In this document: positions 1,991 to 64,000 of the stretch, one piece after another | Numbering within the stretch: position 1 is the stretch's first letter | Layout: each line of letters starts with the position of its first letter | DNA from: Ginglymostoma cirratum | Lineage: Eukaryota | NCBI GenBank assembly: GCA_024137785.1 | Contig: JAHRHZ010000084.1 | Location: 7,031,573-7,095,572 of the forward strand | Reading direction: 5' to 3' | DNA length: 64,000 bases | Notes under the pieces: model-generated | The model's database searches: none | Seen by the model: only the letters and a program-made list of their open reading frames with translations | What the model was told of the DNA's origin: nothing | Translations under genes and position numbers: made by a program

Positions 1991-2090
1991 AGATAACAAG
2001 GTGTAGAGCTGGATGAACACAGCAGGCCAAGCAGCATCAGAGGAGCAGGAAGGCTGACGTTTCGGGCCTAGGCCCTTCTTCTACTATCTC
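1991..2090. mobile_element. Minimal Penelope-like insertion (inverted pLTR plus 10 nt of tail)
   Basis: 15-bp TSD atgccttggaaaatg at 1976-1990 and 2091-2105. Confidence 0.8.
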
Positions 2091-2384
2091 ATGCCTTGGA
2101 AAATGTTCACTGAAAACATCCAATTGGAATATAATTGAATTTATTTGAAACGTTTGCTGAAATTCGTTGTTCACACTAACAGACGGGATAATTTAGCACT
2201 ATCACTGCTCAATAGAAAAAGGAGAATGATAATCACAATATCAGCTACTTGCTTGGAGTATATCATGTAACTTGTTTCGTAAAAACAAAAATATTGCAGG
2301 GTTGAAAGATGAGGATAGTGAGAGGTTCTACTGCAGAAAGCTAGCACTGACATAAAAGCAAAATGGCAAAGTATTATTCATTTT

Positions 2385-2722
2385 TTAATATAATCATTCA
2401 CAGTATGAGGGTGTCGCTGGCTAGGCACCCCTAATTACCCAGAGGGCAGTTAAGAATCAACCATATCATTGTAGGTCTGGAGTCACACAAAGGCCAGACG
2501 AGGTAGGGATGGCAGTTTCCTTCCCTAAAGGACATTAGTGAACCAGATGGGCTTTTACAACAATCGACAATGGATTCACGGTCATAATTAAATTCTTAAT
2601 GCCAGATATTTACAGTGCTCAAATTCAACCATTTGCTGTTTTGAGGATTCGAACTCAGAACCCCACAACATTACCTGGTGTGCTGGATTCACAGTCCAGC
2701 AATAATACCATGAGGCCATGAC
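2385..2722 (-). mobile_element. tRNA-derived SINE sharing a 3' tail with the LINE family at 62535-63470
   Basis: B-box-like ggattcgaactc near 2645, tail gtgtcgctggctagg near 2412. Confidence 0.6.
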
Positions 2723-2804
2723 TGAGATGATACCAGTCCTCTGTTCCTGAAAATTCACGTCATAAGGTTTGAAAAGAGGTAGCAGCAGAGGTTGTTGATG
2801 CATG

Positions 2805-2895
2805 ATAACAAGGTGTGGGGCTGGATGAACACAGCAGGCCAAGCAGCATCATAGGAGCAGGAAAGCTTGACGTTTCGGGCCTAGACCCTTTTTTC
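2805..2895 (-). mobile_element. Penelope-like pLTR fragment
   Basis: gataacaaggtgtgggg...gacgtttcgggcctagaccc, same family as 24560-25491. Confidence 0.75.
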
Positions 2896-3109
2896 TTCCT
2901 GAATACCTCATGATACATATAATTCACGATGACATAAACTCTATTACTTAAGAAACAAGCAATGGCTAAAACAGGAGACTGTGGGCCAAATAATTCAGTA
3001 TTCATAGGTAAAATGCTAGATGCTATTGGAGGCAGGGTAACAAAGCTCTAAGAATATCATGTGATAAAGCAGAGTTGACATGAAATGAAAGAAAACAGCT
3101 TCTGTTAGG

Positions 3110-3324
3110 AGATAACAAGGTGTAGATCTGGATGAACACAGCAAGCCAAGCAGCATCAGAGGAGCAGGAAATCTGATGTTTCGGGCCGAGACCCTTCTTC
3201 AGAAATCTAGCCCCGAAACGTCAGCTTTCCTGCTCCTCTGATGCTGCTTGGCCTGCTGTGTTCATTCAGCTCCACACCTTGTTATCTCAGATTCTCCAGC
3301 ATCTGCAGTTCCTACTATCTCTGA
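3110..3324. mobile_element. Palindromic mini Penelope-like element (inverted pLTR plus pLTR with tail)
   Basis: About 75-90 bp inverted arms, 15-bp TSD agcttctgttaggag at 3097-3111 and 3325-3339. Confidence 0.85.
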
Positions 3325-3339
3325 AGCTTCTGTTAGGAG

Positions 3340-7742: not shown

Positions 7743-7868
7743 CTGAATCGACGATACAAGGGAGAAATTGCCCGTTATTTGCATGACCTTTCCCAGCCGT
7801 CCTCTCGTTTCAACTTTCCTGTCCCTCTAACTGCCGTGTATTCCACGTTGCTGAGAGTGATTACTCAC

Positions 7869-8171
7869 CGCTTACATTCAGCCGTTGGCCAGTTCCAATT
7901 CCAGTATATTCACCCTGCACACTGCAATAATAGACGCCAGAGTCTCCGAAACGCACATTGTGAATGCGCAGAATGGCGCTGGCTTTGCTGTCAATCAGGA
8001 ACTCTCTCCTCGAATCCTGTTTCGAGCTCAAGAATTCGCTGTCGCCCTCTTTCCACCAGTGCACCGTGATTTGTTTTGGATCTCGGGAGAGCGGGAACGA
8101 GCAGTAAAAAGTCACTGTCTGTCCTACGACCGGATCGGACGGTGTCAGAAATTGAGACACTTTAGCGGCCG
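7869..8171 (-). CDS. IgSF VJ-C1 gene, exon 2: V-set domain with germline-encoded J-like G strand
   Basis: Acceptor ttttcgcgacag|, 303 nt, phase 1-1, donor G|GTGAGT. Motifs GQTVTFYC, VHWWK, LRIHNVRFGDSGVYYC, GTGQRLNV. Confidence 0.92.
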
Positions 8172-8446
8172 CTGTCGCGAAAACAAACAAAAACACCAAA
8201 CGTTTATTTACAGGAGGGCGGCGGCGAGGGGAAAATTTGTAGCAGCAAATAAGGAAACAACTAGGGCTCAGCAGCGCGCTTATGAATACTTAGAAAATCC
8301 CTTTTTGCGAAGTGCTAGAAACTACATAAAAAACGTGACAATTTCAGCCATGAACAGTAATACAAGTCATGCCGATGCACAAATTATTTCGCGTGTACAA
8401 TTTACAACTTATTCTATGTAGCAATCGTTGAATCGAAGACACGTAC

Positions 8447-12310: not shown

Positions 12311-12749
12311 CCATCTCCTCATTTGTCTTCAATTGCTGTGCAAGAGTGGTGATTGATACCCATAATGCCAGGTGAAGGTGATAAATAACATTCTTTCGTA
12401 CCAGATCAGAGCAGGTTCAGCATTTAAGCCAGCAGACCAAACCAAAGGATCACTCCTGGCAAAAGAGAAAAATCTACTGATGACCTGTCTCTTGGTTCTG
12501 GAATGCAATGCAACCAAGTGTTAACGGTATTGAACAATACTTTTAGAAGAAAGATGGCTGAGTAAACCATGAGATGCCTCAAGCAATACATTACTGTACC
12601 AACACTACTTTGTAGGAGCCCTGCAGTACTCACCTAAACACATCATGATTGGCCCACTCACATCCGTGACTCCTCTGAAACTTTACATCAATTTCAGAAT
12701 TATCAATTTGTGGGCTTCAACTGCCTTCTTTTTACCATGGACCTGCAAT

Positions 12750-14250
12750 TCCTTTACACATCCATCCCCCACCAGGATGGTTTCAGGGTTCTCCACGTAT
12801 TCCTGGAATAAAGGCCTGAACCATTCCTATCCACCACCAGTCTCCTCTACCCAGCCAAGCTCGTCCTCACCCTGAACAGTTTCTTTTAACTCCACTCACT
12901 TTCTTCAGGTCAGAGAGTTGGCCATGGGTACCTGCATAGCCCAGTTATGCCTGTCTTTTTGTGGGATACGTGGAACATTCCTTGTTCCAGTCCTATTCCA
13001 CACCCACCCACAACTTTTTTTTTCCCCAGTGTATCAATGATATCATTGGTGCTGCTTCCCTCTCTCATCCAAAACTGGAAAACTTTTATCAATTTTGCCT
13101 TCAATTTTCACCCCACACCCCTTCATCTGGTCCATCTCTGACTGCTCCATTCCCTTTCTTGACTCAGTTGAGGATTCCCCAGCACCGTTGTTGACAGGGC
13201 CCTCAGTCGGGTCCAACACATCTCCCACACTTTGGCCCTAAACCCCTCTCTTCCCTCCCGCAACAGCGAGAGAGACCCCCTTGCCCTCACCTACCATCCC
13301 ACTAGCATCCACATCCAGAGGATCATTAGTTGCTATTTTCACCACTGCCAGTAAGATGCAACCACCAGACACATACTCCCTTCCCCTCCATTATCACCTT
13401 CTGCAGAATTGTACCCCCCAGGACACCCTGGTCCACTCTTCCATCACACTCCCACAGCCTCATGGCACCTTCCCCTGTAATTGCAGAAGGTGTAACACTT
13501 GTCTGTTCATTTCTTCCCACCTCAATATCTAAGGACCCAAACATACTTCACAGTTGACGCAACACTTCACTTGCACTCCACACAACCTAGTTTACTGCAT
13601 TCACTGCTCACAATGTGGTCTCTTCTATGTTGGGGAAACGAAGCGTAGACTTTGTAACCGCTTTGCAGAACCAATGTTCTACCCACAAAATAGAACCTGA
13701 GCTTCCAGTTGCCTGGCATTTCAACACGCCACGCCATGCCCCAGACAACATCTCTGTCTCAAGCTTGCTGCAGTGCTTCACCAAAGCTCAGCACGAGCTG
13801 GAAGAACGGCACCTCATTTTTTTTGCTCGGGGAGCCTGTAGCCTTCTGGGTTCAATATAGAGTTCAATAACTTTATGGCTTGAGCTGTCCCTTGTCCTTA
13901 CCCCAACCCCAACTCCAACTCACTAGGCCTTCTTACCACATCATCTGCTATTACACACAATCCATTGTTAGCCACTAATAGTCACCATTAATAGCTATTC
14001 ACACTCCTACCCAGGTTGCTGTCAATTCTTTGTCTGTCCAACTGTTCTTTTCTCTCCTGGGGCTCTATCCCTACCTATTCTTTACTCCGTACACCCTCCC
14101 TACATCCTATTTTCTGCATAAAAACTGACAGTTTCCTAGCTACCAGCAGTTCTGAAGAAGGATCAATCGACCCGAAATGTCAACTCTCATTTCTTTCCAC
14201 AGATGCTGCTAGACCTGCTGAGCTTTTCCAGCAACTTTTGTGTTTGGTTA
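12750..14250 (+). mobile_element. Degenerate Penelope-like retroelement (RT plus GIY-YIG plus pLTR)
   Basis: AMGT and (I)NDIIG RT remnants, CNCRRCNTC knuckle, NLVYCIHCSQCGLFYVGETKR GIY-YIG-like segment, terminal ctgaagaagg..cccgaaatgtc. Confidence 0.8.
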
Positions 14251-15409
14251 TGTTTTGCAGTGGTCTGTGGTATCCCACCTAAGCTCTCACCATGGTAAGA
14301 GATGGTATAACACTCTTCTGGAGCTGGTAGTGAACTTGTGTCTCCTGGTTCAGAGATCCGAATACTACAATTATGCCACAAGATTCCCAGAAGGAAACAA
14401 TATATCTCCCTTCTGTCCAGGCTGTGAATCATTGTCTCATCAGACTGCAGCTCCAATGAACACAGCCTAAATTTAACATTCAACAAAATTGCCATAGCTG
14501 GCTTTTCTTTTCCATCATTGATCCATTACAACATCTTCCTAGCCATAATGGTAAAATAGAAGCTATAACAAAGCAATGATTCCAAGCCATTTTTATCCAA
14601 TTATCCATCCAACATTTCATTTAAAAAATTGCCTTGTGTATTACTACTCAAAAATGGTTTCACTAACTTGGACTTGGGTCTGTAATTTTAGGAATTTCCA
14701 GACTTGAAAAAAAAAATCCTGTTGAATCTCTCACTTTTTTCCTTGGTTAAATAAATTAGCCCTTTTTTGCTGATTCATTGACGAGATGACTGAGAGAATC
14801 TAAGGCAATAATGGACCATTTATCTTTCCTCAGATACTCCCATATACAAATCCCAGTGTTCATCCAGCTTTGCCTTCCATCCAGCATTGGCAATCAGTCA
14901 AAAAATCATCTGACTGTCCTCATCTTACAACTATTAAAGAAGGTGACATGCCTCATGGCAAAAAAAAAAGAGCCAAAGCTGTCAGTAAAACTACTTGTTG
15001 AGCAAGGATCTCTCAACGTGTACAATAATTAGAAGAGTAGATTATGCAGCTCCTTGACTGTGACAGTCTTGTCAGTTACAGCCTTAAGACAATGACTCTT
15101 AGATGCCCATTCAGAAAGATCACGGCTGAGCTTTCACACAAAATCCACATTCCCATTCTATTCCCAGAGCAACTGATTTCCTTAGTACTCAAACATTTTT
15201 TTATTTTCAGTCTTGAATGTATTCAACAATTGAATATCCAGAGGCCTCTAATAATGATGCAAAGCTTACTAAGGGTTTCAGATGCTACAGCAAATATGTA
15301 AATACCCTTCAAAATAACCTAACAAAATTAAGGAGAAAGAAAGTAATTTCATTGTGGCAGTCAACTGCCAAGAGAAAAACATTTCTCATTTCAATTCTCA
15401 TTGGCTGAC

Positions 15410-17727: not shown

Positions 17728-17889
17728 TCATTCATAATACACAAAGGAAAAGTCCCAGAATCCCTTTGTCTCATGTGTCTTCTTGCACTGACTGATGCTT
17801 CGCTGGTTAATGTGTTTCACAAACTTTAGTGTTTCTTTATCTCGGTAGATCAAGGCCAACGAGTTGTCTTCTGGGCAAAGGGTAAGTAA
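17728..17889 (-). CDS. OGFOD1: OGFOD1 exon 13 (terminal coding exon)
   Basis: [30 protein letters not shown]...[11 protein letters not shown] followed by TGA TGA, matching the OGFOD1 C-terminus. Confidence 0.96.
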
Positions 17890-18504
17890 CTGAAATGCAA
17901 CAGAAACCGTTAACAAGGCTTTTAATTGAGTTGCCACTTAATTTCTTCTTTTCCTCTTCAATTCACTACCTTTTCATACTTCATCTCCGGTCAATATGAG
18001 AGGCATATGACAACTCAGAGCCTTTGATATTTTGCTAACAGTTAGTATCTTGCTGGCATGGGCACTGAGACCGTCCTGGATGTCCCACATTTTGCATCTT
18101 CACCTTACTGGAGTACTAATCCTTCATTTTCTATATGTCGGTGGCATGGTTCCACTCTCCGCCATTTAGCTAAAACTAGAAATCTAATGTACCGATAATA
18201 AGATTTAGAATCTTGCAGCACAGCGCAGGGATGAGTTTGGTGTACTTCAGGGCACCCACTCCTCCAACCCAAACGTACCACTGATGTTGTAAGGTCCTTC
18301 GTGCAAGTCCACGTTCTCCACTTGAGGGGACAGGTATATCACCACCAATTGTTTGTGTTATGCATTCGTTAGCTGCATTGCAGTTCCCATCGCAAATGGA
18401 AAAATGCAGAATAACTTTACTCACAGAGGTCTGTCTTTAGCTAATACTGGGTGTTACTTGGGCAACCAGTCTATTTAGGCTTATTAAAATTTTGTGTCAA
18501 ATAC

Positions 18505-19800: not shown

Positions 19801-20024
19801 TACAAGTACACAGAGAAAGGTAACGAAATAATCTATTTTGGACGTCCAATCACCTAGGTTAGCATTTCCCTTGGATTACTATTGGATTATTTTATAACTT
19901 CATCAATCTCACCATTTCACCATCATCTCCCACATGAGATGTAGGGTACTCCAGGCAAGTATCCATGCAATACTAAAGGTCTACTGCTCATGACAGGAGC
20001 TGTTTTCTGACTATCTTCCCAGGT

Positions 20025-20275
20025 ACATATAAAAGACCTCATTGTAATATTTTGAAAAACAGCAGGAGAGTTCTCCACAGAGTTCTGGCAAATATTTACC
20101 CCTCAATGAAAATTGCTACATCTGGCTGTAGTCACTGCCATTTTTAGAAACTGCTGTACACAAATAGGTTGCTAAGTTTTCCTGCATTATAATAGTCAAT
20201 TCCACTAAAAATCACTTCATTGATTGTAAAGGGCTACAGGGCATCCAGAGATCATAAACTTAGTTAATTATAAGT
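20025..20275 (+). mobile_element. SacSINE1/Deu-type SINE fragment
   Basis: agcaggagagttctcc..ctggcaaatatttaccc..gctgtacacaaataggttgct..cttcattgattgtaaag. A related 3' part is at about 43040-43160. Confidence 0.6.
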
Positions 20276-20323
20276 TATTACTTTTTCTTAGCTGATTTGA
20301 AATTCAATAAACATACAGCATAC

Positions 20324-20382
20324 CTCCTCATCTTCTTCCTTAGCGACGTATGAAGTAACACCACCAAATTCCTCATTCCAGC
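20324..20382 (-). CDS. OGFOD1: OGFOD1 exon 12
   Basis: GWNEEFGGVTSYVAKEEDEE, 59 nt. Confidence 0.94.
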
Positions 20383-20439
20383 CTGAAACAAAGAAAAAGA
20401 TGCATGGTGACCTTCCGAATCAGCTTCCTTTTTGATGCC

Positions 20440-22250: not shown

Positions 22251-22256
22251 TGAAAT

Positions 22257-24473: not shown

Positions 24474-24621
24474 CTGAAAAGGGCAAACACATCAAGTTCC
24501 TTCACAAGTTTCAATTCTTTGTTTTTAAGATAGTGAAAAACCATACAATAATTTGACTTAACAAGGTGTGGGGCTGGACGAACACAGCAGGCCAAGCAGC
24601 ATCATAGGAGCAAGAAAGCTT

Positions 24622-24649
24622 GACGTTTCGGGCCTAGACCCTTCATCAG
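24622..24649 (-). ncRNA. Minimal hammerhead ribozyme core in PLE pLTR
   Basis: Minus strand CTGATGA-A-GGG-TCTAGG-CCC-GAAAC-GTC. Confidence 0.55.
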
Positions 24650-25361
24650 AAATGGGGGAGGGGAAGAGGGTTCTGAAATAAATAAGGAGAAAGGGGGAGG
24701 CGGATAGAAGATGGATAGAGGAGAGGACAGGTGGAGAGGAGGCAGACAAGTCGAAGAGGTGGGGATGGAGCCAGTAAAGGTGAGTGTAGGTGGGGGGGTA
24801 GGGAAGAGATTAGGCGACACATCCGCCATCTGACCCCACCACCAAAGACATTTCTCCCTCCCCACCTTTATCTGCTTTCCGGAGGGACCACTCCCTCCGC
24901 GACTCCCTTGTCCGCTCCACACTCCCCTCCAGCCCCACCACACCTGGCACTTTTCCCTGCAACCGCAGGAAGTGCTACACCTGCCCCCACACCTCCTCCC
25001 TCACCCCAATCCCAGGCCCCAAGAAGACTTTCCACATCAGGCAGATGTTCACCTGCACATCTGCCAATGTGGTATACTGCATCTGCTGTTCCCGTTGTGA
25101 CCTCCTCTACATCGGGGAAACCAAGCGGAGGCTTGGGGACCGCTTTGCAGAACACCTGCGCTCAGTTCGCAACAAACAATTGTCCTCCCTGGACTGACCT
25201 ATCTCCTCCCTACCCCCCCACCTACACTCACCTTAACTGGCTCCATCCCCACCTCTTCGACTTGTCTGCCTCCTCTCCACCTATCCTCTCCTCTATCCAT
25301 CTTCTATCCGCCTCCCCCTTTCTCCCTATTTATTTCAGAACCCTCTTCCCCTCCCCCATTT

Positions 25362-25389
25362 CTGATGAAGGGTCTAGGCCCGAAACGTC
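25362..25389 (+). ncRNA. Minimal hammerhead ribozyme core in PLE pLTR
   Basis: CTGATGAAGGGTCTAGGCCCGAAACGTC. Confidence 0.55.
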
Positions 25390-26587
25390 AAGCTTTCCTG
25401 CTCCTATGATGCTGCTTGGCCTGCTGTGTTCATCCAGCCCCACATCTTGTTATCTCGGATTCTCCAGCATCTGCAGTACCTTTTATCTCTGATACAATAA
25501 TTTGACTTGTAACTTTTACTTATAATAAATTCCCATGTTTTGTTTCCCTATGCACCCCAACTCCTCCTTCCCCTGCCTGCCCTAAACACGATACCTAAAC
25601 TTGGCCAAAGAGCATGACTTTCTCACAGAAACAGACTCCTGAGATGTTGCTAGGCTATTAAAACTATGAGATATTCCCAGCTGCTCAACATCATGATTGA
25701 TTTCACCTTGGTAGGCTCTCACCAGCATCTGCATACCTCTGACACTAATATCTTTCCTAATCACCTCCCTTTTTGATGCCTTCTGTTTTCCTCCTCGGAA
25801 CATAGGAAGAGGAGCAGGCCATTCAGGCCACTGAGCCAGCCATTCACACTGTCTGCAAATTGAGATCAAACCAAGTGTATGTAATCTCAAAGTTTCACTA
25901 ATTCTTACTTCAATCAGAGACCAGCACCAAAGAAGTACCTGAATGTACCACGACCTCACCTAATCATAGATTGATATCTGAAACATTAGCATCAATATTA
26001 AACTTGCCCATGCAAAGGCTGTTTAAAAATTATTTCATAGTCTGCAAGCAACAGTGGCAAGGCCAATATTTCCTGTTCGTCTGTAATTACCTTTGAGAAT
26101 CAGGAGGTGAGCCACCCCTCCTGAACTGGTGCAATCCATCCAGTGTGACTACACCCACAATGCTATTAGAAAGAGTTCCAGGACAGGTGTCGGATACATA
26201 ACAGTCAGTGGTGAGTAACACAGGACACGAATGGAAAATTACTGTTGTGCCCAACTTTGTCTGCTTCCTGAAAGGCAGGTCTGCTTAATATTTTCCTCAA
26301 ATGTCCAGAATAGCCTCACCAGCTTTATAAACACCTGCATACAGGTCTAAGGACTGAACTTTACCATTCACTGTTACACCAGGACATGGCATTTAGGTCA
26401 CCGGAACACCTTATCAAATGTATATTAAACCATCCAGTGTCACATTCAGACTTCTACTTGTGCAAGCAGAAATTTAATACGATGATTTTATTGATCTCAT
26501 TTACAAATGGCTTCATATTTTAACTTTGATTCTCGAATATCAATCATTCACCCAGTAGACTTTAGAATGTTTTTCAGTGAAGCTTAC

Positions 26588-31819: not shown

Positions 31820-32735
31820 GATAACAAGGTGTGTCCCTTGTCCGCTCCACATTCCCCTCCAGCCCTACCACACCCGGCACTTTTCCCTGCAACCACAGGA
31901 AGTGCTACACCTGCCCCCACACCTCCTCCCTCACCCCAATCCCAGGCCCCAAGAAGACTTTCCACATCAGGCAGATGTTCATCTGCACATCTGCCAATGT
32001 GGTATACTGCATCCACTGTACCCGTTGTGGCCTCCTCTACATCGGGGAAACCAAGCGGAGGCTTGGGAACTGCTTTGCAGAACACCTGCGCTCAGTTCGC
32101 AACAAACAACTGCACCTCCCAGTCGTGAACCATTTCAACTCCCCCTCCCATTCCTCAGACGACATGTCCATCCTGGGCCTCCTGCAATGCCACAATGATG
32201 CCATCTGAAGGCTGCAGGAACAGCAAATCATATTCAGCCTGGGAACCCTGCAGCCTAATGGTATCAATGTGGATTTCACAAGCTTCAAAATCTCCCCTCC
32301 CTCAACCGCATCCCAAAACCAGCCCAGCTCGTCCCCGCCTCCCTAACCTGTTCTACCTCTCACCTATCCCCTCCTCCCACCTCAAGCCGCACCCCCATCT
32401 CCTATCTACTGACCTCATCCTGCCCCCTTGACCTGTCCGTCCTCCCTGGACTGACCTATCTCCTCCCTACCTCCCCACCTACACTCACCTTTACTGGCTC
32501 CATCCCCGCCTCTTTGACTTGTCTGCCTCCTCTCCACTACCCATCTTCTATCCGCCTCCCCCTCTCTCCCTATTTATTTCAGAATCTTCTTCCCTTCCCC
32601 CATTTCTGATGAAGGGTCCACGCCCGAAACGTCAAGCTTTCCTGCTCCTATGATGCTGCTTGGCCTGCTGTGTTCATCCAGCTCCACACCTTGTTATCTT
32701 GGATTCTCCAGCGTCTGCAGTACCTATTATCTCTG
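31820..32735 (+). mobile_element. 5'-truncated Penelope-like element (GIY-YIG plus pLTR) with short inverted 5' piece
   Basis: ORF 31831-32208 CNHRKCYTC..NVVYCIHCTRCGLLYIGETKRRL..FAEH, TSD tgcataaagatga at 31807-31819 and 32734-32746. Confidence 0.9.
32606..32633 (+). ncRNA. Minimal hammerhead ribozyme core in PLE pLTR
   Basis: CTGATGAAGGGTCCACGCCCGAAACGTC. Confidence 0.55.
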
Positions 32736-35270: not shown

Positions 35271-35417
35271 TAAGGGCATAGATCCAACAAAATTTTAAAC
35301 CTCCATTTACAGAGTGAAAGAGTTCCACTGAGCTGGATTCTGGATATCCAGCCCTGATTACAAAATGGTGGTCAAGTAGAAGTGGGACAAAAAGGAGCCA
35401 ACAGTGAGAAGGGAAAA

Positions 35418-35501
35418 GATCAGAAGTCACACAACACCAGGTTATAGTCCAACAGGTTTATTTGAAATCACAAGCTTTTGAAGTGCTCCTTCATCAGGTG
35501 A
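35418..35501 (-). mobile_element. Short Penelope-derived element of a second family
   Basis: Minus strand CTGATGAAGGAGCACTTCAAAAGCT core, 14-bp direct repeat agtgagaagggaaa at 35403-35416 and 35502-35515. Confidence 0.65.
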
Positions 35502-35970
35502 AGTGAGAAGGGAAAGAATGCTTTCTACTCCAGGGCATGTATCCCCAGATGAGAACTGCAACATGTCTGAATGAGTAAAAACATCCAAGAGGACAATTAA
35601 TCACTGACACACTTAACTAGTGCAACATCTGGTATAACTTTATTCTGGCTGTCTGTGGACCCAGAATGTATGTAGTCAGTCCTACACAATTACTGCATGC
35701 AAACAATGTGCTTCTGCCTATGAACCAACTGCCTCATTAACTCTCTGGCATTCCTTTATCCCCATTCTTCTCACATAAAGGGATTCAGATTGGGAAACCC
35801 ACTTTCATAACATTATTGGCACTCAAGAAGTATTCCAAAACGATAACAACTTGCAGAAACATCCTTCAATGTAACTGTAAACAAGAAATGAATAGTCTCC
35901 ATATTATGACGCACAATATGACCACAAATTGTCATCACGCAGATTATCATAAATATTGTTAGATCCATAC

Positions 35971-43595: not shown

Positions 43596-45832
43596 CTGTC
43601 AAGAGAGGAACAAAGATTCCAGTTACCTTGGCAAGGAGCAGTTTTGCTACAATAAATTATAGAAACGTAGTATTTTGTTAGCATTAGGCATCCGCAAAAA
43701 TAAAATATAAATTAAATTGCCAGACTCTTAAAGACTTTGAAGAAGAAATATTTGTACATCATTACAGTGGTATTCTCTCATTTATACTGCCTGGTTTGAT
43801 GGGAATTTTCCGGGCTAGATATGCTGAGCTGTCTTTCTGACCATTAGTGTTTGAATGCACAAGTTGTGGCAGTTAGTTCATTTACACTCCCTTTGCCTTT
43901 AAATCAAGTATACCCAAATTTAAAATATGTTCAATAAGTCCAATAGGCTCCTTGTGCACTTTATGACATAGGTTTGACAGAAGGGTTGCACCCAATTATT
44001 TAACCCAACTCTGATGACGCTGCAACCTCTGGAAAACTTCATACCACTTCTCTCCAAAGGCAATTGAAAACCAGATGCCAGATCCATACTGTAAGCTTTG
44101 TGACAAGATTATAGCAGAGCTTGCTTCTCAGCAATTCTACTATCAATACAGAAATCAACCATAAATGAACATAAATCCATCCCTGAATTGTATGCCTTAA
44201 ACTTTGTTTCCTTGAGGTGTGAAGAAACCACTAACCTGCCAAAGTACATATTGATAGGTAACATCCATTTTCTCTAACTTCTGTCTTCCTGTCTACCCAC
44301 TAAACTTTTTGTCCATGTTGCTAGATTTTGAAGCTCAATTACGTTTCCTCATGAAATACTTGATGTTTTCTGGCAAGCCATTTTGTAAGACAACTTATCA
44401 AATTCCTTTTGAAAAATCCAGACATGGATCTTAACGTATTCCTTTCTCCATCCAGCTATCTCTGCAAATTAAAATCCTTTTAAATTTGCAAAATATGACA
44501 TTCTTTTGACCACTCCATCCTGATTGCCCTTCATTAACCCACACATTTGAGTGTTCACCAATTGTATCTTGAATTGTTCCCATTCAAAACTTTGTTTCTT
44601 TTTTATTCAATAAACTTTCACAGTATTGTCATTATTGTTATACAGTCACAGACAGCATTTCCTACAACAAGCTCCCAAACATACTGCAGACACAAATGGC
44701 CAGTGTATTCATTTTCAGTGGTTACGGGATAAATGTTGTATGGAACAGTAGTAGACCTCCCTGCTCTACCACAACCGATGCAGTCAGCTCTAACTTTCAC
44801 TGAACACAAGCTGTGGATCTCATGGTTATCAGTGAAACAATAACACTCACTACTGACCTTATAGGAAGCTGCCCACAAAGACATAGTAATTTATGTGGCA
44901 TGGCTTTCCACCTTCTCAACATTACTCTGAATCTGGTGCCAAATCCAAATCCAGCAGTGATATCATTGAGAATGGTTATCAGACAGTAGTATTCTCATCC
45001 ACAGCAAAGTAGCATGCAAAATGCAAATCAAATTTTCACTTTTGATCAAAACTTTGCCGAGAACAAAATAAATTACTGGGAAACATAGATGGGATGTAAC
45101 TGTAAACTGCAAAGTTTTTAAACTTTTTTAAGCATAAAATGTTTTAAACGTAAAGAAATTTGGCAATCTACAATGTAAAATTAATTTTCCACTGACACTG
45201 AAGCTGCTCAGTAATTTGAGTGTGGGAGATCAGATTAAGCCCAGTTACATCTGAATCAACAACGTGTAATCTTGTCAAAAGTTTTTACAGCGACATTCAG
45301 TAAAAAATTGTCAGTTCAGTAACTCATTGATTTCAAACCAGGGAACTTCAACAGCATAACCTGCAGGGGAATGAAATCACGAACAGAAACTTGTGCATTT
45401 CATCATTTAACTGCACACATGCGAACTTCAGATATTCCTGTTAAAATCAGAAGCACAACGATGGCTAAACTGTCGCAATTTACGATCACAAAAAACACGG
45501 CTAATGTGCCATCTAAAGCGAGCAAACCGCCAATAAACCACTCTATCAATACTGCATCATATACATTTAACACGAAAACAAAAACAGTCACTTGACTCGA
45601 ACTGTTAATTCTATTTTCTCTGCACAGACGCTGCCAGGCCTGCTCAGTTTTTGCAGCGATTTCTGTGTTTGTTTCTGTATTGTGCTTCATCGTCTTCTTT
45701 CCAACACAGGAGACTATCCACTGAACTAAGACAGCATCTGAATTGTTTCGCCTGCCTTAGTTACTCTGAGCTCCCTTTTTCCAGCCTACTGCCCGCCCTT
45801 GACTGTTATGCAAACCCCTCGCTTCCTCTCAC

Positions 45833-46321: not shown

Positions 46322-46425
46322 AAGGCAAAAACAGAAGTTGCTGGAAGCTCGGCAGGTCTGGCAGCATCTGTTAAGAAAAAAAATCAGAGTTAACGTTTTG
46401 GAGCTGGTGACCCTTCCTCAGAACA
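46322..46425 (-). mobile_element. Penelope-like pLTR fragment (related copies about 47235-47370 and 58965-59045)
   Basis: caaaaacagaagttgctgg..ggcagcatctg..gacccttcctcag, reverse of the end of 12750-14250. Confidence 0.7.
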
Positions 46426-46820: not shown

Positions 46821-47440
46821 TTAGTGTACATTGGAAATTTCAGGTTACAAATTTGACTCAAATTCATGTATATATACTCAAATACTTCCAAATAAATGAG
46901 TGGGCAAAGAGTATAAGAAATGGAATATCTGCTCTCAGTCCAACATCTTTGCTGTCTTATTTTCTGATGGAATAGCAGGATCTACTAACCTCAGTTTCAA
47001 ATTTGCTGTGCACTTTAGTCATCCCTGAGTACTCCTGTTTATTAACAATTTCAAAACCATAACCCATTGCATTATCAGTGTTGTAATGAGGGAAGACTCA
47101 ATATTAATTTTCTCAAGAAGTGTAGGATCAATCTGTGATTAACCCTTGAAGGGAATGGGTATTGACGGCTGTCATCTTCCCTTATCTTTTAACTGTTTCA
47201 CTTACTGAAATGTCAATCCTGTTAATTCTGGACAAAAACCAAAAGAAATGTGGATGTGGTAAATGAGAAGCAAAAACAGAAATTGATGGAAATGCTCAGC
47301 GGGTCTGGCATCATATGTAGAGAGAAATCAGAGCTAACGCTTTTGGTTGAGTGACCCTTGCTTAGACCCTCACTGTCAATTCTGATCAGTTTTTGTATTG
47401 ATGTGACTCCTTCCTAAGATAATGTGATATTTTATGACGA

Positions 47441-47672
47441 GATAGTAAGAATTGCCAATGTGGAGTCAGCGATAACACAGTGCAGAGCTGGAGGAACACA
47501 GCAGGCCAGCAGCATCAGTGGAGCAGGCAAGTTGATGTTTTGGGTCAGGACCCTCCTTCAGAAGAAGGGTCTGAAGGTCTGAAGAAGAGTTCCGACTGGA
47601 AACATCAACTTGACTGCTCCCTCGATGCTGCCTATCCTGCTGTTCTCCTCCAGCTCCAAACTGTGTTATCTC
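47441..47672. mobile_element. Older palindromic mini Penelope-like element
   Basis: Inverted arms gataacacag.. and ..ctgtgttatc, near-perfect TSD tgatattttatg(a/c)cga at 47425-47440 and 47673-47688. Confidence 0.75.
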
Positions 47673-48779
47673 TGATATTTTATGCCGATTTGCTCTGGAA
47701 AGTGGATTGTGTGCTGCCATGCCCTCATGTTTAAAACTCTGAGCTCATTTTCACAGTTTTTGCTTAATTGGTAAGAGTCCCTCAATAAATCAAACACCTA
47801 ATATTGACTATATGTGTACTGAGGCCATTTGTCAGGGTTTTTTTTTGTCTATATGGTTGTGGTGCCTGGAATGGGTCTCCTAACTTTCACAGCAGAAGAT
47901 ACAGTGTGAATGTAAAATAGTATTACTTTAATACAGAAGATCACAGGATACCGCCACAAATTACAAAGTAGCTGGTAAGAATCATGCAGAGTGTGTTTAA
48001 GTCTAAGTTTAGAATAAAGAGTGTATAAAAGGTGAGATTGTGAGATATCCTTAAATTCAGTCAATACATGGTCTTGACTAAACTAAACTAATCAAGAAAG
48101 AAAAATTTCCCTACTGGTCCTACGATAATGCAGGATTTCAGTGATGAAAAGGCTTTTGATTACCAATGGGAGATGGTTAGATTCTCTCTTGTTAGAGATA
48201 ATCACTTTCTGACACTTGTACGGCATGAATATTACTTTCCTCACCCCTGCCTAAACCTTTCATGTTACAAAAATCATCTGCAAGTAGACATGGAATACTT
48301 CACTGTCTGAAGAGTCGTGAATGGGTGGCATGGTGGCTTGTTCGTCTAGGGTGGCATGGTAGTTCAGGGAGTAGCACTGCTGCCTCACAGTGCCAGGAAT
48401 CCAGGTTCCAGATAAGGTAGGAGGATGCTGTTTGGAGGGTTGGTGTGGACTTGTTGGGCCGAATGGCCTGTCTCCACACTGTGGGGATTCTATATGATTC
48501 CTTGAATGATGTTGAACATTATGCAAATATCTCTATTTCTAATCTAATGAAGGAGGGAAGGTCATTGACAAAGCAGTTGAAGTTGGTTGGCCCTAGGGCA
48601 ATATCCCGAAGACCTCCTGCAGACATGTCCTCGAATTATTGCCAAGAAAAAAATCCAAAACCATCCTCTTTTTTGCTGGGTATGAATCCAGCCAGTGGAG
48701 TGTTAGGGTCCAGGGTTTCCTTAAGGTTGTTCATCTATAAATAACATATTCTGTGGTGCAAACTGACATAAAAGAACAA

Positions 48780-50134: not shown

Positions 50135-51470
50135 GGTAAGTATTCACCAGTGAGAAGGATCTTGACGTTTGTGAGGACAGTGTGAAACAGGCTGATATGC
50201 TCAAACAGGTTGATGTTAAGAAGGACAATATGCTAGAAATTTTGAAAAAACATGTGGATAGATAAGTCCCTTGGGCCAGATGGGATATACCCAAGGTTTT
50301 TACAGGAAGCAAAGGAAGAGATTGCCACGCCTTTGGCAATGATCTTTGCATCCTCACTATCCACTGAAGAAGTACTAGATGATTGGAGGATGGAGGAAAT
50401 AGGGATAATACTGGGAATTACAGACCAGTCAGTGTTACTTCTGTGGTGGGCAAATTATTGGAGAGGATTCTGAGAAATAGTATTTATGATTATTTGGAAA
50501 AGCATAGTTTGATTATAAATAATCAACATGGCTTTGTGAGGGGCAGGTTAGCCTCACAAGTCTTATTGAATTCTTTGAGGATGTGACAAAACACATTGAA
50601 GAAGGTCGAGCAGTGGATGTGGCATATATGGATTTTAGCAAGGCATTTGATAAGGTTCCCCCTGGTAGGCTAATTCAGAAAGTTAGGAGGCATGGGATTC
50701 AGGGAAATTTAGCTGTCTGGATACAGAATAGGCTGTCCATTAGAAAATAGAGGGCAGTAGTAGATGGAAAGTATTCAGCCTGGAGCTCGGTGACCAGTGG
50801 TGTTCTGCAGGGATCTGTTCTGGGACCTCTGCTCTTTGTGATATTTATAAATGACTAGAATGAGTAAGTGGAAGGGAGGGTTAGTAAATTTGCTGATGGC
50901 ACGAAGGTTGCTGGAGTTGTTGTTACTGTGGATAGCTATTGTAGATTGCGACAAAACATTGACAGGAGGCAGAGCTGGGCAAAGAAGTGGCAGATGGAAT
51001 TCAACCCAGAAAAATGTGAAGTGATTAATTTTGGAAGGTTGAATTTGAATGCAGAATACAGGGTTAATGGCAGAATTCTTGGCAGTGTGGAGGAACAGAG
51101 GGATCTTGGGGTCGACGTCCATAGATCCCTCAAAGTTGTTACCCAAGTTGATAGGGTTGTTAAGAAGGTGTATGGTGTTTTGGCTTTCATTGGCAGAGGA
51201 ATTGAGTTTAAGAGCTGCAAGGTTATGTTGCAGCTCTGTAAAACACGAGTCAGACCACACTTGGAATACGCTGTTCAGTTTGGTCACCTCATTAGAGGAA
51301 GGATGTGGAAGCTTTAGAGAGGTTGCAGAGGGGATTTATGAGGAAGCTGCATGGACTGGAGGGCAGGTCTTGTGAGGAAACGTTGAGGGAGCTGGAGATT
51401 TTCTCACTGGAGCGAAGAAGGATGTTCATTTGACTTCCTAAGGGTCTATTTCTATGCTGTATAACTCTAT
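50135..51470 (+). mobile_element. CR1 LINE RT domain, frameshifted
   Basis: DKSLGPDGIYPRFL, GNYRPVSVTSVVGKLLE, YMDFSKAFDKV, SKFADGTK, RPHLEYAVQF. Confidence 0.92.
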
Positions 51471-57600: not shown

Positions 57601-59189
57601 CTTTTTCCTTTACTTGTTCTACATTTCTTGTTGAAAATTAATAAATTGGTCTGGGGTGTGGGTGTTTAATTTGTTTAACCTGGTCATTGGTTCTCATCTA
57701 AAGTCAAAATCAATGAGCAATGAACTTACTGCTGGTCTTCCTCAATTTAACAGCTTTACGAGTTTTCAAAGATATTTTCCCAAAGTTAACTGTTTGGATT
57801 TAGGACAGTAAATCCGCCTCATTGTGTGTACACAACATCCCATTCCAGATTGGAACCTTCACACCGAGGACATCAGCAGAATAGCTTTGGAACAGGGCCC
57901 TGCCCAATACAGCACTCCTATCAAAACAAACGTACCAGGTTCCACCAACTATCTGACAAAGTTGTCCAAAGCCATTCGCACTTCAATTAATCAAAGCTAT
58001 TTGACATTAGTGATACACTGAATCAACTGGACATCAAGTCTGAAATGTTGTAGAAAATATACTTGTTCACAAGCTTGCTGACTAAGAGTGCTGCCGGAGT
58101 TTACATTGTAGTTTATATAATATGATCAATGGCCCCATTGAGTATTGATCAAGTTAAATTGACTGTACAGTATTTCACTGTAGCATTCATCCAAATTTCT
58201 GTAATTACTGTGACAAATAGTTGTTGAATATACTGGAGAATCAGGATGATTGGCTACTAATGGCATTTCTCCATGGATTCACAGATTTACCACGTGATTT
58301 TACTTTTTTTTTACCTTTGTAATGTTAACGCTTATAGGGTAGTACGTATCTACAATTGTTTCTTCAGCTGAGCTATACAATCATTAATACAGTACAGCAT
58401 TCAGCCGATGTATTCTGAATCTGGGCACCATTCAGCTGCATGGTTCCCGATACCTGAATACTATTAATGACCACGAACCTACTTTCACAATCTTAAATGT
58501 TCACATCTTCAGCCTTTTGGACAGCAAGTTCCAGATTCCTCTGAATCGTTGTGTGAAAAAGAGATGTTTCCTCTTTTCATTCATGAATGTTTGGAGTAAA
58601 TTTTAAAGATATTCTCCTGTTTTGAATTTTAACTAATGTCAGTTCAGCAATGGAGATCTGGTCCAATAAGGAGAATTTATGTTTGAAAAGTGAATTAGGT
58701 AGACCTGAAACGGGATCTAGGTTACAGGCATTATTGCAAGCTAAGTCGTGCACGAGCATTAACATTTCAAGGAATAACATTCATAAGGAAAAAAGTAATG
58801 TTAAAGTGGTATCAGACTTGGCTAGATCACACTTGGATTTTTTTTGCACAAAATCCGCTCGAGGACTGCACATCAGAACAACTTATCAGAACATGCCGGG
58901 AAAATGCTCTCCAGAAAATTGAGGGCTGAGGCTGACCTGATCAACACTTGTCAAATCATGAAAGAAACTCAGCACGTCTGGCAGCATGTGTGTAGAGAGA
59001 TACAATGTTAATGTTATGAGTCCACTAGGACTCTTCTTCAGAATTGAAGGGGGTTGCAAAGTTGTTTTTATGCTGATGACCTAGGGTTATGTTTCGGGGT
59101 GGGGGTGAGATGGGTGGGGTTCCTGGGGATTGGGGGCAATTAGAAAGCAAAATGTACGCATTGTGAGGGTGCCCAGAGTAAAAGATACA

Positions 59190-60220: not shown

Positions 60221-60234
60221 ATCAAGCTCCATTA

Positions 60235-60955
60235 GAGTCATAGAGATGTAGGGCATGGAAACAGACCCTTTGGTCCAACTCGTCCATGCCGACCAGATGT
60301 CCCAAATTAATCTAGTCCCATTTGCCAGCATTTGTCCCATATGCCACTAAACAAATTATTTTCACGTACTCATCCAGATGCCTTTTAAATGTTGTAATCG
60401 TACCAGTCTCCACCACTGCTTCTGTCACCACCCTCTGCGTGAAAAGGTTACCCTTTAGGCCCCTTTTAAATCATTCCCCTGTCATCTGAAACCTATGCCC
60501 TCTAGTTTTAGACTCTCATGCCCTGGGGAAATGAACTCGGCTGTACCCTCTATCCATGCCCCTCATGATTTTATAAACCTCTATAAGGTTACCTCTCAGC
60601 CTCCAATGCTCCAGAGAAAGTAACCCCAGTCTTTTAAGCCATTCCCTATGGCTCAAACACTCCAACCCTGGCAACATCCTTGTAAATCTTTTCTGAATCC
60701 TTTCAAGTTTCACAACATCTTTCCTATAGCTGGGAGACCAGAATTGAATGCAGCATTCCAGAAGTGCCCTAACTAATGTCCTGCAACATGACCTCTCAAA
60801 TCCAATGTTCAATGCAATGACCAAGAAAGGCAAGTGTACCAAACACCTTCTTCACTAAACTGTCAACCTGCCATTCTACTTTCAAGGAACTATGAACCTG
60901 CACTCCAAGGTCTCTTAGTTCAGCAACACTGTCCAGGACATTGCCATTAAATGTA
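60235..60955 (-). mobile_element. CR1 LINE 3' portion
   Basis: ORF 60516-60842 LECCIQFWSPSYRKDVVKLERIQKRFTRMLPGL..RLRGNLIEVYKIMRG. Confidence 0.9.
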
Positions 60956-62534
60956 TTTGCAGGTTTCCATCCTGAACTGTGGAGGGAAGACCTCTATAAA
61001 AGATGAATTTAGAAACCATCCAAAAAAAAAAGCTTGATGTACTGTGGGGCCATGATTGGTTAACCTATAACAAGTAGAAGACAACAGCACCATCCTGACC
61101 AGCAAATCTTTTAATAAATTCAAAGTTAAAACTACGAGAATGGAGTGCAGCAAATTCAGATGGACACAGGTTACAGTACGTAAAGGGAGCATTGCAAATA
61201 AGGCAGTTAATGTCAAATTGACAAGTCGCAAGCTAAAAGACTGAGGGAGGGTTCCAGTGGAGGGGTTGCTTGGGAGTGGATGAAAAAGTCCATTAAGCAG
61301 CATGGGGACTTCTGCCCCAGAGTTCAACATCATCTTCTGTCTGAAATTCATTGAGGTGGGGGCATAATGGGAGAAATTAAATTATTTGCTGAGTATTGAT
61401 TGCCAGCATCTGAACATAAAACGAAAGTTCACCATAGTCTGACCACACTAGAGTGCTGCTCTCTAAATTAGATGGAAAATGAGACGGAAAATATTTTATG
61501 TTGATATCAGCCAGGGCAAGAATTAAGCTCACATATTTGGTGTCGCTCTGCATTACAAAACAGACATTCAAATTAACTAATCCTCATTGGAATAGTGAAT
61601 ACCTCGAGGCTATCGTGAATCAAGAGCAAGTTGTGGGATTAGAAGAAAGGATGAAGTCAGAGTGAAGGAGAGGCAGGGAAGAATCCAGAAGGGCAGCATT
61701 ATTTGTGAATGTTTGGAGCTTGTGTTCCTTAACAACTAAAAGGAAGAAAGTGATTCTTGTTACAGTTGTGCATGAAACAAAGTATAAAATTAACTGGCAA
61801 CTGGGACAGTCTGAGGTAGTACTGATGGAGAGAGTGGTTTAAGAGTGTGTATGTGATTGCACGTGGCACTGGTTATGGATGTGGGATGAGGTGGGATCAG
61901 TTGAGTATTATTGCTGACCAATTCTCCAGCACTTCCGCTGCATCTAGGGAGGATTAAATGATTATGGTAATAGCCCATCATGTCCACCCTCACTCGCATT
62001 TACAGTCCAGGAAGCAAACCATCTAAACCAAACGCCCAACCACTCTTCAGACAAAAGGCATTTCCAGTGTGCCCTGGCCAGACTCTTAATGCAATTTATT
62101 CATTCTACTCTCTCTACTTCTACATATTGTTAGTTTGCATCATCTGCTTCGGTCAACATCAGTCAAAATATTCATTAAATTCTCTAATTTTGCATATGGC
62201 CTCTCAGTATAATTCACTGTTTTGTACCAATAGCTACCACAAAACGTTTTGCCACCTGTTTACTAACTAAAGGTTGTAGAAGACATTTCAGCTCCATTTT
62301 ATTACAGCAGCCATTTGATTCTTAGGCTCTCTTTGCCAAATTATTTTCACCTTGAATTCCACTATCAATTTACTGTATTTGATCTGCTTGCACATGCGGA
62401 TATTTCTGACAGGGTATTTGAAAATGTGTACTAGTGCCCATACATGAATGTGTGTTAGACTGCCTAACTGCTTATGTACACTTATATCTTTTTTTTGTAA
62501 GTCTGTGTACATGTGCCAGAAAATCCTGTAAAGT

Positions 62535-63472
62535 CCTATTCAGGCATCATCTTCAGATGCTTCACCAATGACATTCCCTCCATCATAAGGTCAGAATGGG
62601 GGTGTTCACTGACGATTGCATTATGTTCAGCACCATTCGTGACTCCTCAGATACTAAAGCAGTCTGTGTTCAAATGCAACAAGATCTGGATAATATTCTG
62701 GCTTGGGCTGACAAGTGGCAAGTGACATTCACACCACGCAAATGCCAGGTTATGACCAGCACCAATAGAAGTCATTCTAACCACCACCCCTTGACATTTA
62801 GTGGTGTCACCATCGCTGAATTCCCCATTAGCAACATCCTGGGGGTTAATATCGACCACATAAACACAGTGGCTACAACAGCAGGCAAGAAGCTAGGAAT
62901 ACTGTGGCCAGTAACTCACCTCCTGATCCCTCAAAGCCTGTCCACCATCGACAAGGCACAAATCAGGAATGTGATGGAGTACTCCCCACTTGGCTGGATG
63001 AGTGTAGCCCCAACAATACTCAAGAAGCTTGACACCATCCAGGACAAAGCAGCCCGCTTGATTGGCATTACATCCACAAGCATCCATTCCATCCATCACC
63101 AATGCTCAGTAGCAGAATTGTGTACTATCTACAAGAGTCGCTGCAGAAATTCACCAAAGATCTTCATACAGCACCGTCCAAACCCATCACCACTTCTATC
63201 TAGAAGGACAAGGGCAGCAGATATATGGGAAGATCACCACCTCCAAGCTCCCCTCCAAGCCACTCACCATCACGACTGAAAATATATCACCGTTCCTTCA
63301 CTGTCGCTGAGCCAAAATCCTGGAATTACATCCTTAATGGCATTGTGTGTCAACCTACATTAGGTGAACTGCAGCAATTCAAGAAGGCGGCTCACCACCA
63401 CCTTCTCAAGGGCAACTAGGGCTGGGCAAGAAATGCTGGTCAGCCAGCGATGCCTACATCCCACAAATGAAC
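62535..63472 (+). mobile_element. LINE (CR1/L2 clade) RT C-terminus and 3' tail
   Basis: ORF 62596-63279 FTDDC..QQDLDNILAWADKWQVTF..KAQIRNVMEYSP, tail aaatgctggtcagccagcgatgcctacatcccacaaatgaa. Confidence 0.88.
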
Positions 63473-63937
63473 AGAAAAACATATTTTTTCTTGTTGGTTT
63501 ATCTACATTGGCTGCTGATCTAGCGAAGACTTCATTTTAAAAGTCTCGTCTCTGGTTTCACATCGCTTTAACAACTTGTTCTTGATGTAATTCTGATCTC
63601 TTCTTCATCTTTAATTTTCATTATTTGTGGATATGTCCTGGGGTTCAAAATTCCAAAGCTCTCTAATTCAATTCACAGACAAACCGCTGTCTACCTCCCT
63701 TTTAAAGCCTGCTGTTTGATCAAGCACCAGTACCTGATGTTACTCAGTCAAAGACAAAATTTGATAACGCTCCCTGTGAAGCGTCTGATGAACTTTATAC
63801 ATACGCTATACAATCGTCTTACTGTCACATGCTTTTCTGGCACGTGTACAAAGACATACAGAAATATATATAAGCTATATATAGCTATTGGTACTAAACA
63901 GTGAATTATACATGCTTGAGTGTGCGACTGTATAGCT

Positions 63938-64000
63938 GAGATAATAGGTACTGCAGATGTTGGAGAATCCGAGATAACAAGGTGTGGAGCTGGATGAACA
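63938..64000 (-). mobile_element. 3' end (tail plus pLTR) of a Penelope-like element running off the window
   Basis: gagataataggtactgcagatgttggagaatccgagataacaagg, reverse of 32675-32735. Confidence 0.8.

What the first reader, a model, noticed from the sequence alone, without database searches (positions are those of the whole stretch)
1991..64000. Hammerhead-ribozyme cores dispersed by several Penelope-like families
Seen: the pattern CTGA(T/A/G)GA-stem-GAAAC-NTH recurs at 3175-3202(-), 14152-14181(+), 24622-24649(-), 25362-25389(+), 32606-32633(+). Decayed versions are at 35473-35497(-), 46392-46421(-), 47534-47561(-), 47579-47606(+) and about 59010-59041(-). The stem-II loop varies (TCTAGG, TCCACG, TCTCGG) while GGG/CCC and the core stay fixed. 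Known: Penelope-like elements carry minimal hammerheads in their pLTRs, often active as dimers. Inference: about ten ribozyme-like motifs in 64 kb implies a very high genome-wide number in this species. Caveats: there is an extra A after CUGANGA and stem I looks weak.
Basis: partly seen in the sequence, partly recalled or inferred. Interest (0 to 1): 0.7.

Follow-up and report, generated by a model that had tools for sequence, protein, structure and literature searches.

The report
Penelope retrotransposon ends carrying minimal hammerheads
These repeats are leftover ends of a known kind of jumping gene that carries a tiny self-cutting RNA motif; most copies are decaying, but so many begin just in front of the motif, and almost none at its cut site, that they likely mark where the element's RNA starts and show it was copied uncut.

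Summary
All ten motifs are at the stated coordinates; three are intact (shuffles 0.1). They are minimal type I hammerheads (min-HHR) in the pLTRs of Penelope-like elements: family A is Neptune-type by motifs, and at least three families occur in the window. One exact pattern has 82,468 genome hits (control 0), about nine times the highest count in Cervera 2014. The 'extra A' and short stem I are published min-HHR features. Across five families the core is fixed while stems I, II and the palindromic helix III covary, so source elements were selected for the RNA fold; individual copies decay neutrally. In an unbiased sample, 34 of 92 (A) and 29 of 66 (B) copies start 1-7 nt before the core, but only 1 and 3 near the cut site. 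A TATA-like box lies about 30 nt upstream, and 6 of 12 copies carrying the ORF start share this edge. Likely the hammerhead opens the mRNA and is copied uncut. Cleavage is untested; RNA reads were uninformative. This scan noted the fixed start before in other windows of this genome. Known kind, modest interest.

The parts
24559..25492 (.). Two-armed family A insertion: inverted arm 24559-24810 (ends 63 nt past the cut site) plus direct arm 24811-25492 with a GIY-YIG fragment, 3' UTR, hammerhead and tail; 17-bp target-site duplication; in an OGFOD1 intron
   Evidence: (TSD score 17, null maximum 10 of 200)
25362..25389 (+). Intact min-HHR: CUGAUGA, bulged A, stem II GGGU/GCCC, GAAA, palindromic ACGU, cut site predicted after 25389; stem I 3 bp
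25327..25333 (+). TATA-like TATTTAT, 31 nt upstream of A25358
   Evidence: sequence; same position in 95 of 103 long family A copies; promoter function inferred
25356..25362 (+). Initiator-like CCATTTC; A25358 is the inferred transcription start and first base of the 5' strand of stem I; 5' ends of short copies pile up here
   Evidence: Inr consensus recalled
25390..25492 (+). Leader downstream of the hammerhead with two preferred copy ends (+63 to +67 and +100 to +103); the 35 nt between them is the PLE 'tail'; in 5'-complete copies the ORF ATG follows at +140
   Evidence: PMC11167929
24622..24649 (-). Intact min-HHR in the inverted arm; sense to OGFOD1, but paired to a 97%-identical opposite arm
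31825..32735 (+). 5'-truncated family A copy (GIY-YIG region 31834-32322, 3' UTR, intact min-HHR 32606-32633, tail); no TSD above chance found
12644..14260 (+). Old family B element: RT/EN remnants (34-56% aa identity to the family A ORF), TATA-like box near 14117, decayed min-HHR 14152-14181, leader
3109..3324 (.). Miniature head-to-head insertion (arms end at +67 and +103), decayed min-HHR 3175-3202(-), left arm starts 4 nt before the core; about 15-bp TSD
1990..2090 (-). Family A arm starting inside the core plus 9 nt of tail as second arm; about 15-bp TSD
2804..2893 (-). Family A arm starting at stem II; no TSD above chance
35412..35505 (-). Family E short insertion (GAAAGCU type, palindrome AGCU), core decayed; 14-bp TSD
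45587..45677 (+). Family B arm truncated within stem II
46326..46424 (-). Family B short copy starting 3 nt before the core; G12 lost
47234..47366 (-). Decayed family B short copy, possible 12-bp TSD (score 10, at the null maximum)
47439..47676 (.). Old family A head-to-head insertion, both hammerheads decayed (47534-47561-, 47579-47606+); about 16-bp TSD
58965..59068 (-). Old B-related (GAGTC/GACTC stem II) pLTR with upstream A-rich box; core decayed
63938..64000 (-). Tail of a short family A insertion whose mutated hammerhead lies just beyond the window; 13-bp TSD

Best explanation
The motifs are minimal type I hammerheads in the pLTRs of Penelope-like retrotransposons, spread as short, often two-armed insertions that are now decaying, and each likely formed the first 30-odd bases of the element's mRNA and was likely copied uncut. 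Shown: motif, host ORF (RT + GIY-YIG) for families A and B, TSDs, two preferred 3' ends, a 5' pile-up 1-7 nt before the core, cross-family covariation, neutral decay of copies. Inferred: a TATA/initiator promoter starts the RNA about 4 nt before the core, which limits stem I to about 4 bp. The protein nicks DNA and primes reverse transcription internally at +67 or +102 (as shown in vitro for the anole element). Priming at the 5' copy of these sites gives cDNA that runs off the RNA's 5' end after 95-135 nt; priming at the 3' pLTR gives the longer ORF-bearing copies. Priming from both strands of a staggered cut gives head-to-head arms, one with and one without the tail. The hammerhead would cut only as a dimer or with the element's protein, removing the 32-nt capped leader; such cut RNA is rarely the template.
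For: Intact motifs over shuffles. 82,468 exact family A hits, control 0. RT and GIY-YIG in a 647-aa frame with DKG, YIDD and CX4CxxC motifs. Covariation in stems I, II and III across five families, with stem I outside every search pattern. Non-CpG core 605/620 vs downstream 3045/3348 in A, 369/390 vs 1813/2106 in B, while CpG G12 decays like other CpGs, 49/62 and 27/39. 5' ends at -7..-1: 34 of 92 (A) and 29 of 66 (B), against 1 and 3 within 3 nt of the cut site, in copies found by downstream sequence only. 6 of 12 loci picked on the ORF start alone begin at -7..-2 and none at the cut; 10 of the 12 stop within about 130 nt of the ORF start. TATA-like box 28-32 nt upstream in A (95 of 103), B (11 of 22), three G copies and E (2 of 6). 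55 of 69 head-to-head pairs combine one long and one short 3' end. The four commonest A subtypes each occur as long and short copies. PMC11167929: both strands extended, two internal RT starts, uncut RNA is the template, cleavage needs protein.
Against: No direct evidence of a start site or of cleavage: an unstranded poly(A) run showed no place where many molecules begin or end. The cap-copy signature is inconclusive. The mode of 5' ends is -3, not -4, and 21 of 92 (A) and 16 of 66 (B) start inside the hammerhead. Long copies of one family are not independent, so the promoter argument rests on four families; TATA and Inr consensus are recalled. Nearest-neighbour folding puts family A's active dimer far above its best fold (-3.5 vs -33.8 kcal/mol). 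A third of sampled bases read N (332,201 of 993,428). Clade was assigned by motifs, without a tree.
Confidence: 0.72

Rival explanations
1. Same elements, but the fixed 5' edge is not a transcription start: it is a stop or template-switch point set by RNA structure or protein binding at the front of the hammerhead.
For: Junctions often show microhomology, short re-copied pieces and longer T runs. RNA reads show no start site. Many copies also end inside the hammerhead.
Against: Reverse transcriptase meets the 3' side of the fold first, yet ends peak on the far side. 0 of 92 A copies start between -40 and -8, though 28 run far upstream. The TATA-like spacing recurs in four families with unrelated intervening sequence.
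Confidence: 0.15
2. The short units are an independent non-autonomous element (SINE-like or monomeric retrozyme) that multiplies from its own short transcripts, cut and perhaps circularised by the hammerhead.
For: Short copies are as common as long ones and have their own TSDs. Retrozymes derived from pLTRs are reported (bioRxiv 10.64898/2026.07.22.740005). Subtype ratios of short to long differ. An earlier scan note suggests re-mobilised hairpins.
Against: No tandem arrays of the unit in the window. Copies do not start at the cut site. Short and long copies share the same subtype letters. Copies that include the ORF start have the same 5' edge. Junctions are mostly different from copy to copy.
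Confidence: 0.08
3. The dispersed copies are working ribozymes that cut host pre-mRNAs and are kept for it.
For: Very many keep an intact core (39 of 62 A, 17 of 39 B). One intact copy lies sense in an OGFOD1 intron. Copies are present in poly(A) RNA.
Against: The catalytic G12 decays at the CpG rate. Helix III needs a partner. Family A folds into non-active shapes. Two-armed copies would pair with their own opposite arm. Published: no monomer activity for a min-HHR, no cleavage without protein, 8 of 9 frog dimers inactive.
Confidence: 0.04
4. Chance resemblance to a hammerhead inside an ordinary repeat.
For: Rfam has no hammerhead hit; stem I of family A is 2-4 bp.
Against: Compensatory changes in three helices across five families around a fixed core; position in the pLTR as published.
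Confidence: 0.01

Closest known systems
Minimal hammerheads (min-HHR) of metazoan PLE pLTRs, Cervera & De la Pena 2014 (PMC4209133; text parts 1-2 of 4 read, supplements not seen)
   Same: Type I topology, no real helix III, palindromic 15.2-16.2, unpaired base between 9 and 10.1, G10.1-C11.1, short helix I, mostly single dispersed copies, some close opposite-strand pairs.
   Different: Stem II is 4-6 bp here (7-8 in Schistosoma). Count is far higher: 82,468 for one exact pattern and about 240,000 extrapolated, against about 4,000 (coelacanth) and 9,000 (Xenopus) with a different descriptor. Sharks are not named in the text read.
Poseidon element of Anolis (PAc), Frangieh et al. 2024 (PMC11167929; parts 1-2 of 4 read)
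   Same: Two copy ends about 35 nt apart downstream of the hammerhead; two-armed products fit extension of both strands; hammerhead retained in copies.
   Different: Family A has the CX4CxxC linker (Neptune type) and its ORF starts 140 nt after the cut site, not at stem II. The paper does not discuss a 5' pile-up at the hammerhead's edge in the parts read.
EN+ PLE insertions with inverted pLTR, tail and TSD (Arkhipova 2013 PMC3846280; Craig 2021 PMC8557442; passages read)
   Same: Inverted 5' arm, one-sided 30-40 bp tail, TSD, TATA plus Inr-like motifs in the pLTR, palindromes at the inverted junction.
   Different: TSDs here are 13-17 bp (8-10 in the rotifer); many inserts are only 95-250 bp.
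Non-LTR retrozymes (bioRxiv 10.64898/2026.07.22.740005; parts 1-3 of 5 read)
   Same: Type I hammerhead, pLTR-related, non-coding.
   Different: Retrozymes are head-to-tail tandem arrays; these are dispersed, single or head-to-head, and start before the core rather than at the cut.

Membership tests
PLE min-HHR | Core CUGANGA ... GAAA ... UH | tested here: met
   3 of 10 window sites fully intact; 39 of 62 A and 17 of 39 B copies keep the 11-nt core plus H17
PLE min-HHR | Unpaired base between 9 and 10.1; G10.1-C11.1 | tested here: met
   218 of 221 descriptor hits fit a 1-nt bulge (tried first by the script), A 212, T 6; G-C commonest first pair in all five families
PLE min-HHR | Palindromic helix III strand for dimer formation | tested here: met
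   ACGU in A, B, F, G; AGCU in E
PLE min-HHR | Helix I of about 4 bp with covariation | tested here: met
   Pairs 1-4 differ between families and stay paired; family A weakest (2-4 bp)
PLE min-HHR | Self-cleavage as dimer or with protein | not testable with these tools
   No assay; RNA reads uninformative
Canonical type I hammerhead (Rfam models) | Match to an Rfam hammerhead model; helix III and loop-loop contacts | tested here: not met
   No hammerhead family at E up to 10
EN+ Penelope-like element | Single ORF with RT and C-terminal GIY-YIG | tested here: met
   L091 647 aa: RVT_1 E 5e-6 (below cut-off), GIY-YIG E 4e-5 (above cut-off); DKG and YIDD motifs; window fragments for A and B. Not shown for family E.
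EN+ Penelope-like element | pLTR from partial tandem, inverted 5' arm, 30-40 bp tail, TSD | tested here: met
   L110 partial tandem; 24559-25492; tail +67 to +102
Neptune clade | CX2-5CxxC linker upstream of GIY-YIG | tested here: met
   C-x4-C-x2-C in family A; criterion from PMC8557442, shared with Nematis
Neptune clade | RT groups with Neptune in a tree | not tested
   No reference sequences at hand
Non-LTR retrozyme | Head-to-tail tandem units each with a hammerhead | tested here: not met
   No such array in the window; not surveyed genome-wide

The most novel reading that the evidence does not exclude
The minimal hammerhead at the capped front of the mRNA works mainly as a dimerisation signal: its palindromic helix III (and, in family A, the near-palindromic stem II) ties two template RNAs together on the protein dimer, so that both strands of the cut target are primed, one at each internal start, and the two cDNAs meet head to head exactly at the hammerhead's edge; cleavage is a late or regulatory side reaction. 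The million or so fossil arms in this genome would then be a base-resolution record of that step.
Probability: 0.15. Interest if true: 0.7.

Novelty: new member of a known kind. Interest (0 to 1): 0.3.

Why it matters
What PLE hammerheads do is an open question (PMC8557442 calls it unclear; PMC11167929 found cleavage unnecessary in vitro). This genome holds on the order of 10^5 intact-core copies, and their ends argue against the textbook idea that the hammerhead trims the template: cut-site starts are rare, starts just before the core are the commonest class. If that edge is the transcription start, it explains the short stem I of min-HHRs and gives a precise test. The motif and its host are already described, and the copies look inert.

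Tried and rejected
Rfam scan: no hammerhead model fits. Cap-copy G at 5' junctions: among the first 100 of 3,954 matches the base before the start A was C 60, G 22, A 15, T 3 (counted by hand), but many G and A cases are explained by microhomology with the inverted arm, so inconclusive. RNA: no RNA holder listed; of two raw-read runs from the same species label, one laid 47 reads and one 35,800 unstranded reads with no start or end peak. Depth over the ORF start was about 3-5% of that over the leader, close to the ratio of exact genomic counts, 1,940 to 82,468, so no sign of element-specific transcription. Expression and splicing of the host locus were not examined. Very long 'open frames' were runs of N. 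A splice acceptor as the 5' edge: no AG there. The downstream leader folds no better than shuffles in A, E and F (z -1.2 to +1.1), only in B (z -2.5). No TSD above chance for 5 of 13 window units, one at the null maximum. Lunse et al. (dimer cleavage) is not held; seen only as a title in a reference list. Searches for a paper on shark PLE hammerheads or on a start site at the hammerhead edge found none; the library lacks most subscription journals and Repbase, and supplements of PMC4209133 and PMC11167929 were not read and may list such cases.
Full report
1. Observation. All ten sites are present as written. Three are fully intact (24622-, 25362+, 32606+); 3175 has lost the helix III palindrome, 14152 has a broken stem II, and the other five lack core bases or stem II. 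A min-HHR descriptor finds 4 hits in the window against 0.1 in shuffles. Rfam reports no hammerhead, as expected for forms without helix III. The genome is 4.36 Gb; 'shark' is my inference from genome size and repeats and the label used in earlier scan notes, not a tested result.

2. Host elements. Self-comparison and TSD search resolve the window into 13 units. Family A copies at 25362 and 32606 follow GIY-YIG fragments. Longer copies give a 647-aa frame with RT and GIY-YIG matches, DKG, YIDD and a C-x4-C-x2-C linker, which marks Neptune or Nematis rather than Poseidon (PMC8557442 passages). L110 is a partial tandem: 3' UTR, hammerhead, tail, then an ATG 140 nt after the cut site opening a 300-aa frame with the element's N-terminus. 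The 14152 site ends a second, older PLE (family B; 34-56% aa identity). The 35473 site belongs to a third family (E) with AGCU in helix III; its ORF link was not shown. Seven of 13 units have 13-17 bp TSDs above a null maximum of 10.

3. Numbers. Exact patterns: A 82,468, B 6,889, E 543 (controls 0); a pattern for other stem II types 7,101 (control 42; it includes mutated A and B copies). In 661,227 non-N bases picked without regard to the motif, 36 intact descriptor hits give 54 per Mb, about 240,000 if extrapolated, and 98 A plus 66 B arms of any state give about 250 per Mb. A third of the sampled bases read N, so extrapolations are rough. Cervera 2014 gave about 4,000 for coelacanth and 9,000 for Xenopus.

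4. Is it a hammerhead? Among 225 distinct intact copies (A 139, B 35, E 28, F 13, G 3, 7 unassigned) the helices covary between families. Stem I pair 1: U-A, U-A, C-G, A-U, U-A; pair 2: U-A, U-A, A-U, C-G, C-G; pair 3: U-G, G-C, C-G, G-C, G-C. Stem II pair 1 is G-C throughout and pairs 2-4 change type. Helix III is ACGU or AGCU. Stem II and helix III were partly fixed by the search patterns; stem I was not. In copies found by downstream sequence only, non-CpG core positions match the majority base in 605 of 620 (A) and 369 of 390 (B) cells against 3045 of 3348 and 1813 of 2106 downstream; this pools subtypes, needs alignment through the motif and is not corrected for base composition. G12, in a CpG, is kept in only 49 of 62 and 27 of 39, like the neighbouring CpG. 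So source lineages kept the fold and inserted copies decay. The bulged base and short helix I are listed features of min-HHRs.

5. Where copies begin and end. 3' ends cluster at +63 to +67 and +100 to +105 in A, and at +65 to +69, +94 and +103 in B (105 is the limit of the A reference), matching the two internal RT starts and the tail of PMC11167929. 5' ends in the unbiased set: A, 92 usable of 98: 28 long, 34 at -7..-1, 21 inside the motif, 1 within 2 nt of the cut, 8 further down. B, 66: 11 long, 3 at -11..-8, 29 at -7..-1, 16 inside, 2 at the cut, 5 further down. Equal 7-nt windows give 34 vs 1 and 29 vs 3. Twelve loci picked only on the ORF start: 6 begin at -7..-2, 1 at -77, 5 between +53 and +154 from the core, none at the cut; 10 of them stop within about 130 nt of the ORF start, so they were copied from the front of an ORF-bearing RNA. 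Upstream, an A/T-rich TATA-like island in pyrimidine-rich sequence lies 28-32 nt before that edge in A (95 of 103), B (11 of 22), G (3 copies) and E (2 of 6, edge taken 8 nt before the core), and the edge sits in CCATTTC or TCAGTTC, which fit the initiator consensus (recalled). TATA and Inr-like motifs in a pLTR were noted in rotifer elements and an internal promoter in Drosophila Penelope. Of 69 head-to-head A pairs within 1.5 kb in all fetched loci (a set partly chosen on the motif), 55 join one long and one short 3' end.

6. Mechanism. Most likely the pLTR promoter starts the mRNA about 4 nt before the core; the protein primes reverse transcription internally; priming near the 5' end yields 95-135 nt run-off copies and priming in the 3' pLTR yields longer ones; both target strands are often primed, giving head-to-head arms. 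The hammerhead was intact in the templates. Cleavage would need a dimer or the protein, and would remove the capped leader. Folding predicts stem II stable in B, E, F and one A copy, stem I only in E and F, and family A far from the active dimer (nearest-neighbour energies ignore the tertiary core). The start site, the cap and any cleavage are inferred. RNA reads did not decide it and the cap-G test was confounded.

7. Host context. Minus-strand OGFOD1 exons lie near 17.8, 26.8, 30.0 and 33.3 kb, so the 24.6-25.5 and 31.8-32.7 kb insertions are intronic; the intact 24622 motif is sense to the gene but faces its own inverted partner.

8. Novelty. Motif, host, inverted arms and tail are published. 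The fixed 5' edge I noted, and then found reported in earlier notes of this scan on other windows of the genome; a word search for the TATA/initiator reading returned nothing. Added here: the count against the cut site, the ORF-start control, the promoter spacing in four families and stem I covariation. Paper searches found no account of these for sharks, within the library's limits. Papers seen: PMC4209133 and PMC11167929 parts 1-2 of 4; the 2026 preprint parts 1-3 of 5; passages of PMC6765202, PMC8557442, PMC2377424, PMC3846280, PMC6155905; no supplements. Verdict: new member of a known kind, interest 0.3.

Noticed in passing
window 17731-33406 (-): OGFOD1 exons (PDB 4NHX match E 4.5e-18; Pfam Ofd1_CTDD and 2OG-FeII_Oxy_4).
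   Followed up: partly
window 7861-8289 (-) and 1113-1547 (-): An Ig V-set exon and an Ig C1-set exon on the same strand, probably one B7- or tapasin-like immune gene (family label is a guess).
   Followed up: no
window 38797-39889 (-): Old PLE RT remnant, 30-34% identical to the family A ORF, with no hammerhead linked to it.
   Followed up: no
L089, L240, L248, L254, L263, L267 (family F, not in the window): A hammerhead family with a 6-bp stem II, bulged U and an ATG at the start of stem II as described for the anole Poseidon element; about 10-18 nt upstream it carries a stretch complementary to its own CUGANGA core, a possible built-in off switch.
   Followed up: partly
short family A copies, all loci: The T run before the core is often four or more bases in short copies (ATTTT 11, TTTTT 6) but three in nearly all long copies; possible slippage at the RNA's 5' end.
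   Followed up: no
window 25370-25381: Family A stem II plus loop is nearly palindromic, so two RNAs are predicted to form a 12-bp intermolecular duplex there.
   Followed up: partly
L269-L280: Ten of 12 copies carrying the ORF start end 50-130 nt into the ORF, suggesting further internal priming sites beyond the tail.
   Followed up: partly
window 18761-19709, 50868-51317, 62572-63279: LINE-type RT fragments unrelated to the finding (CR1 label recalled).
   Followed up: no
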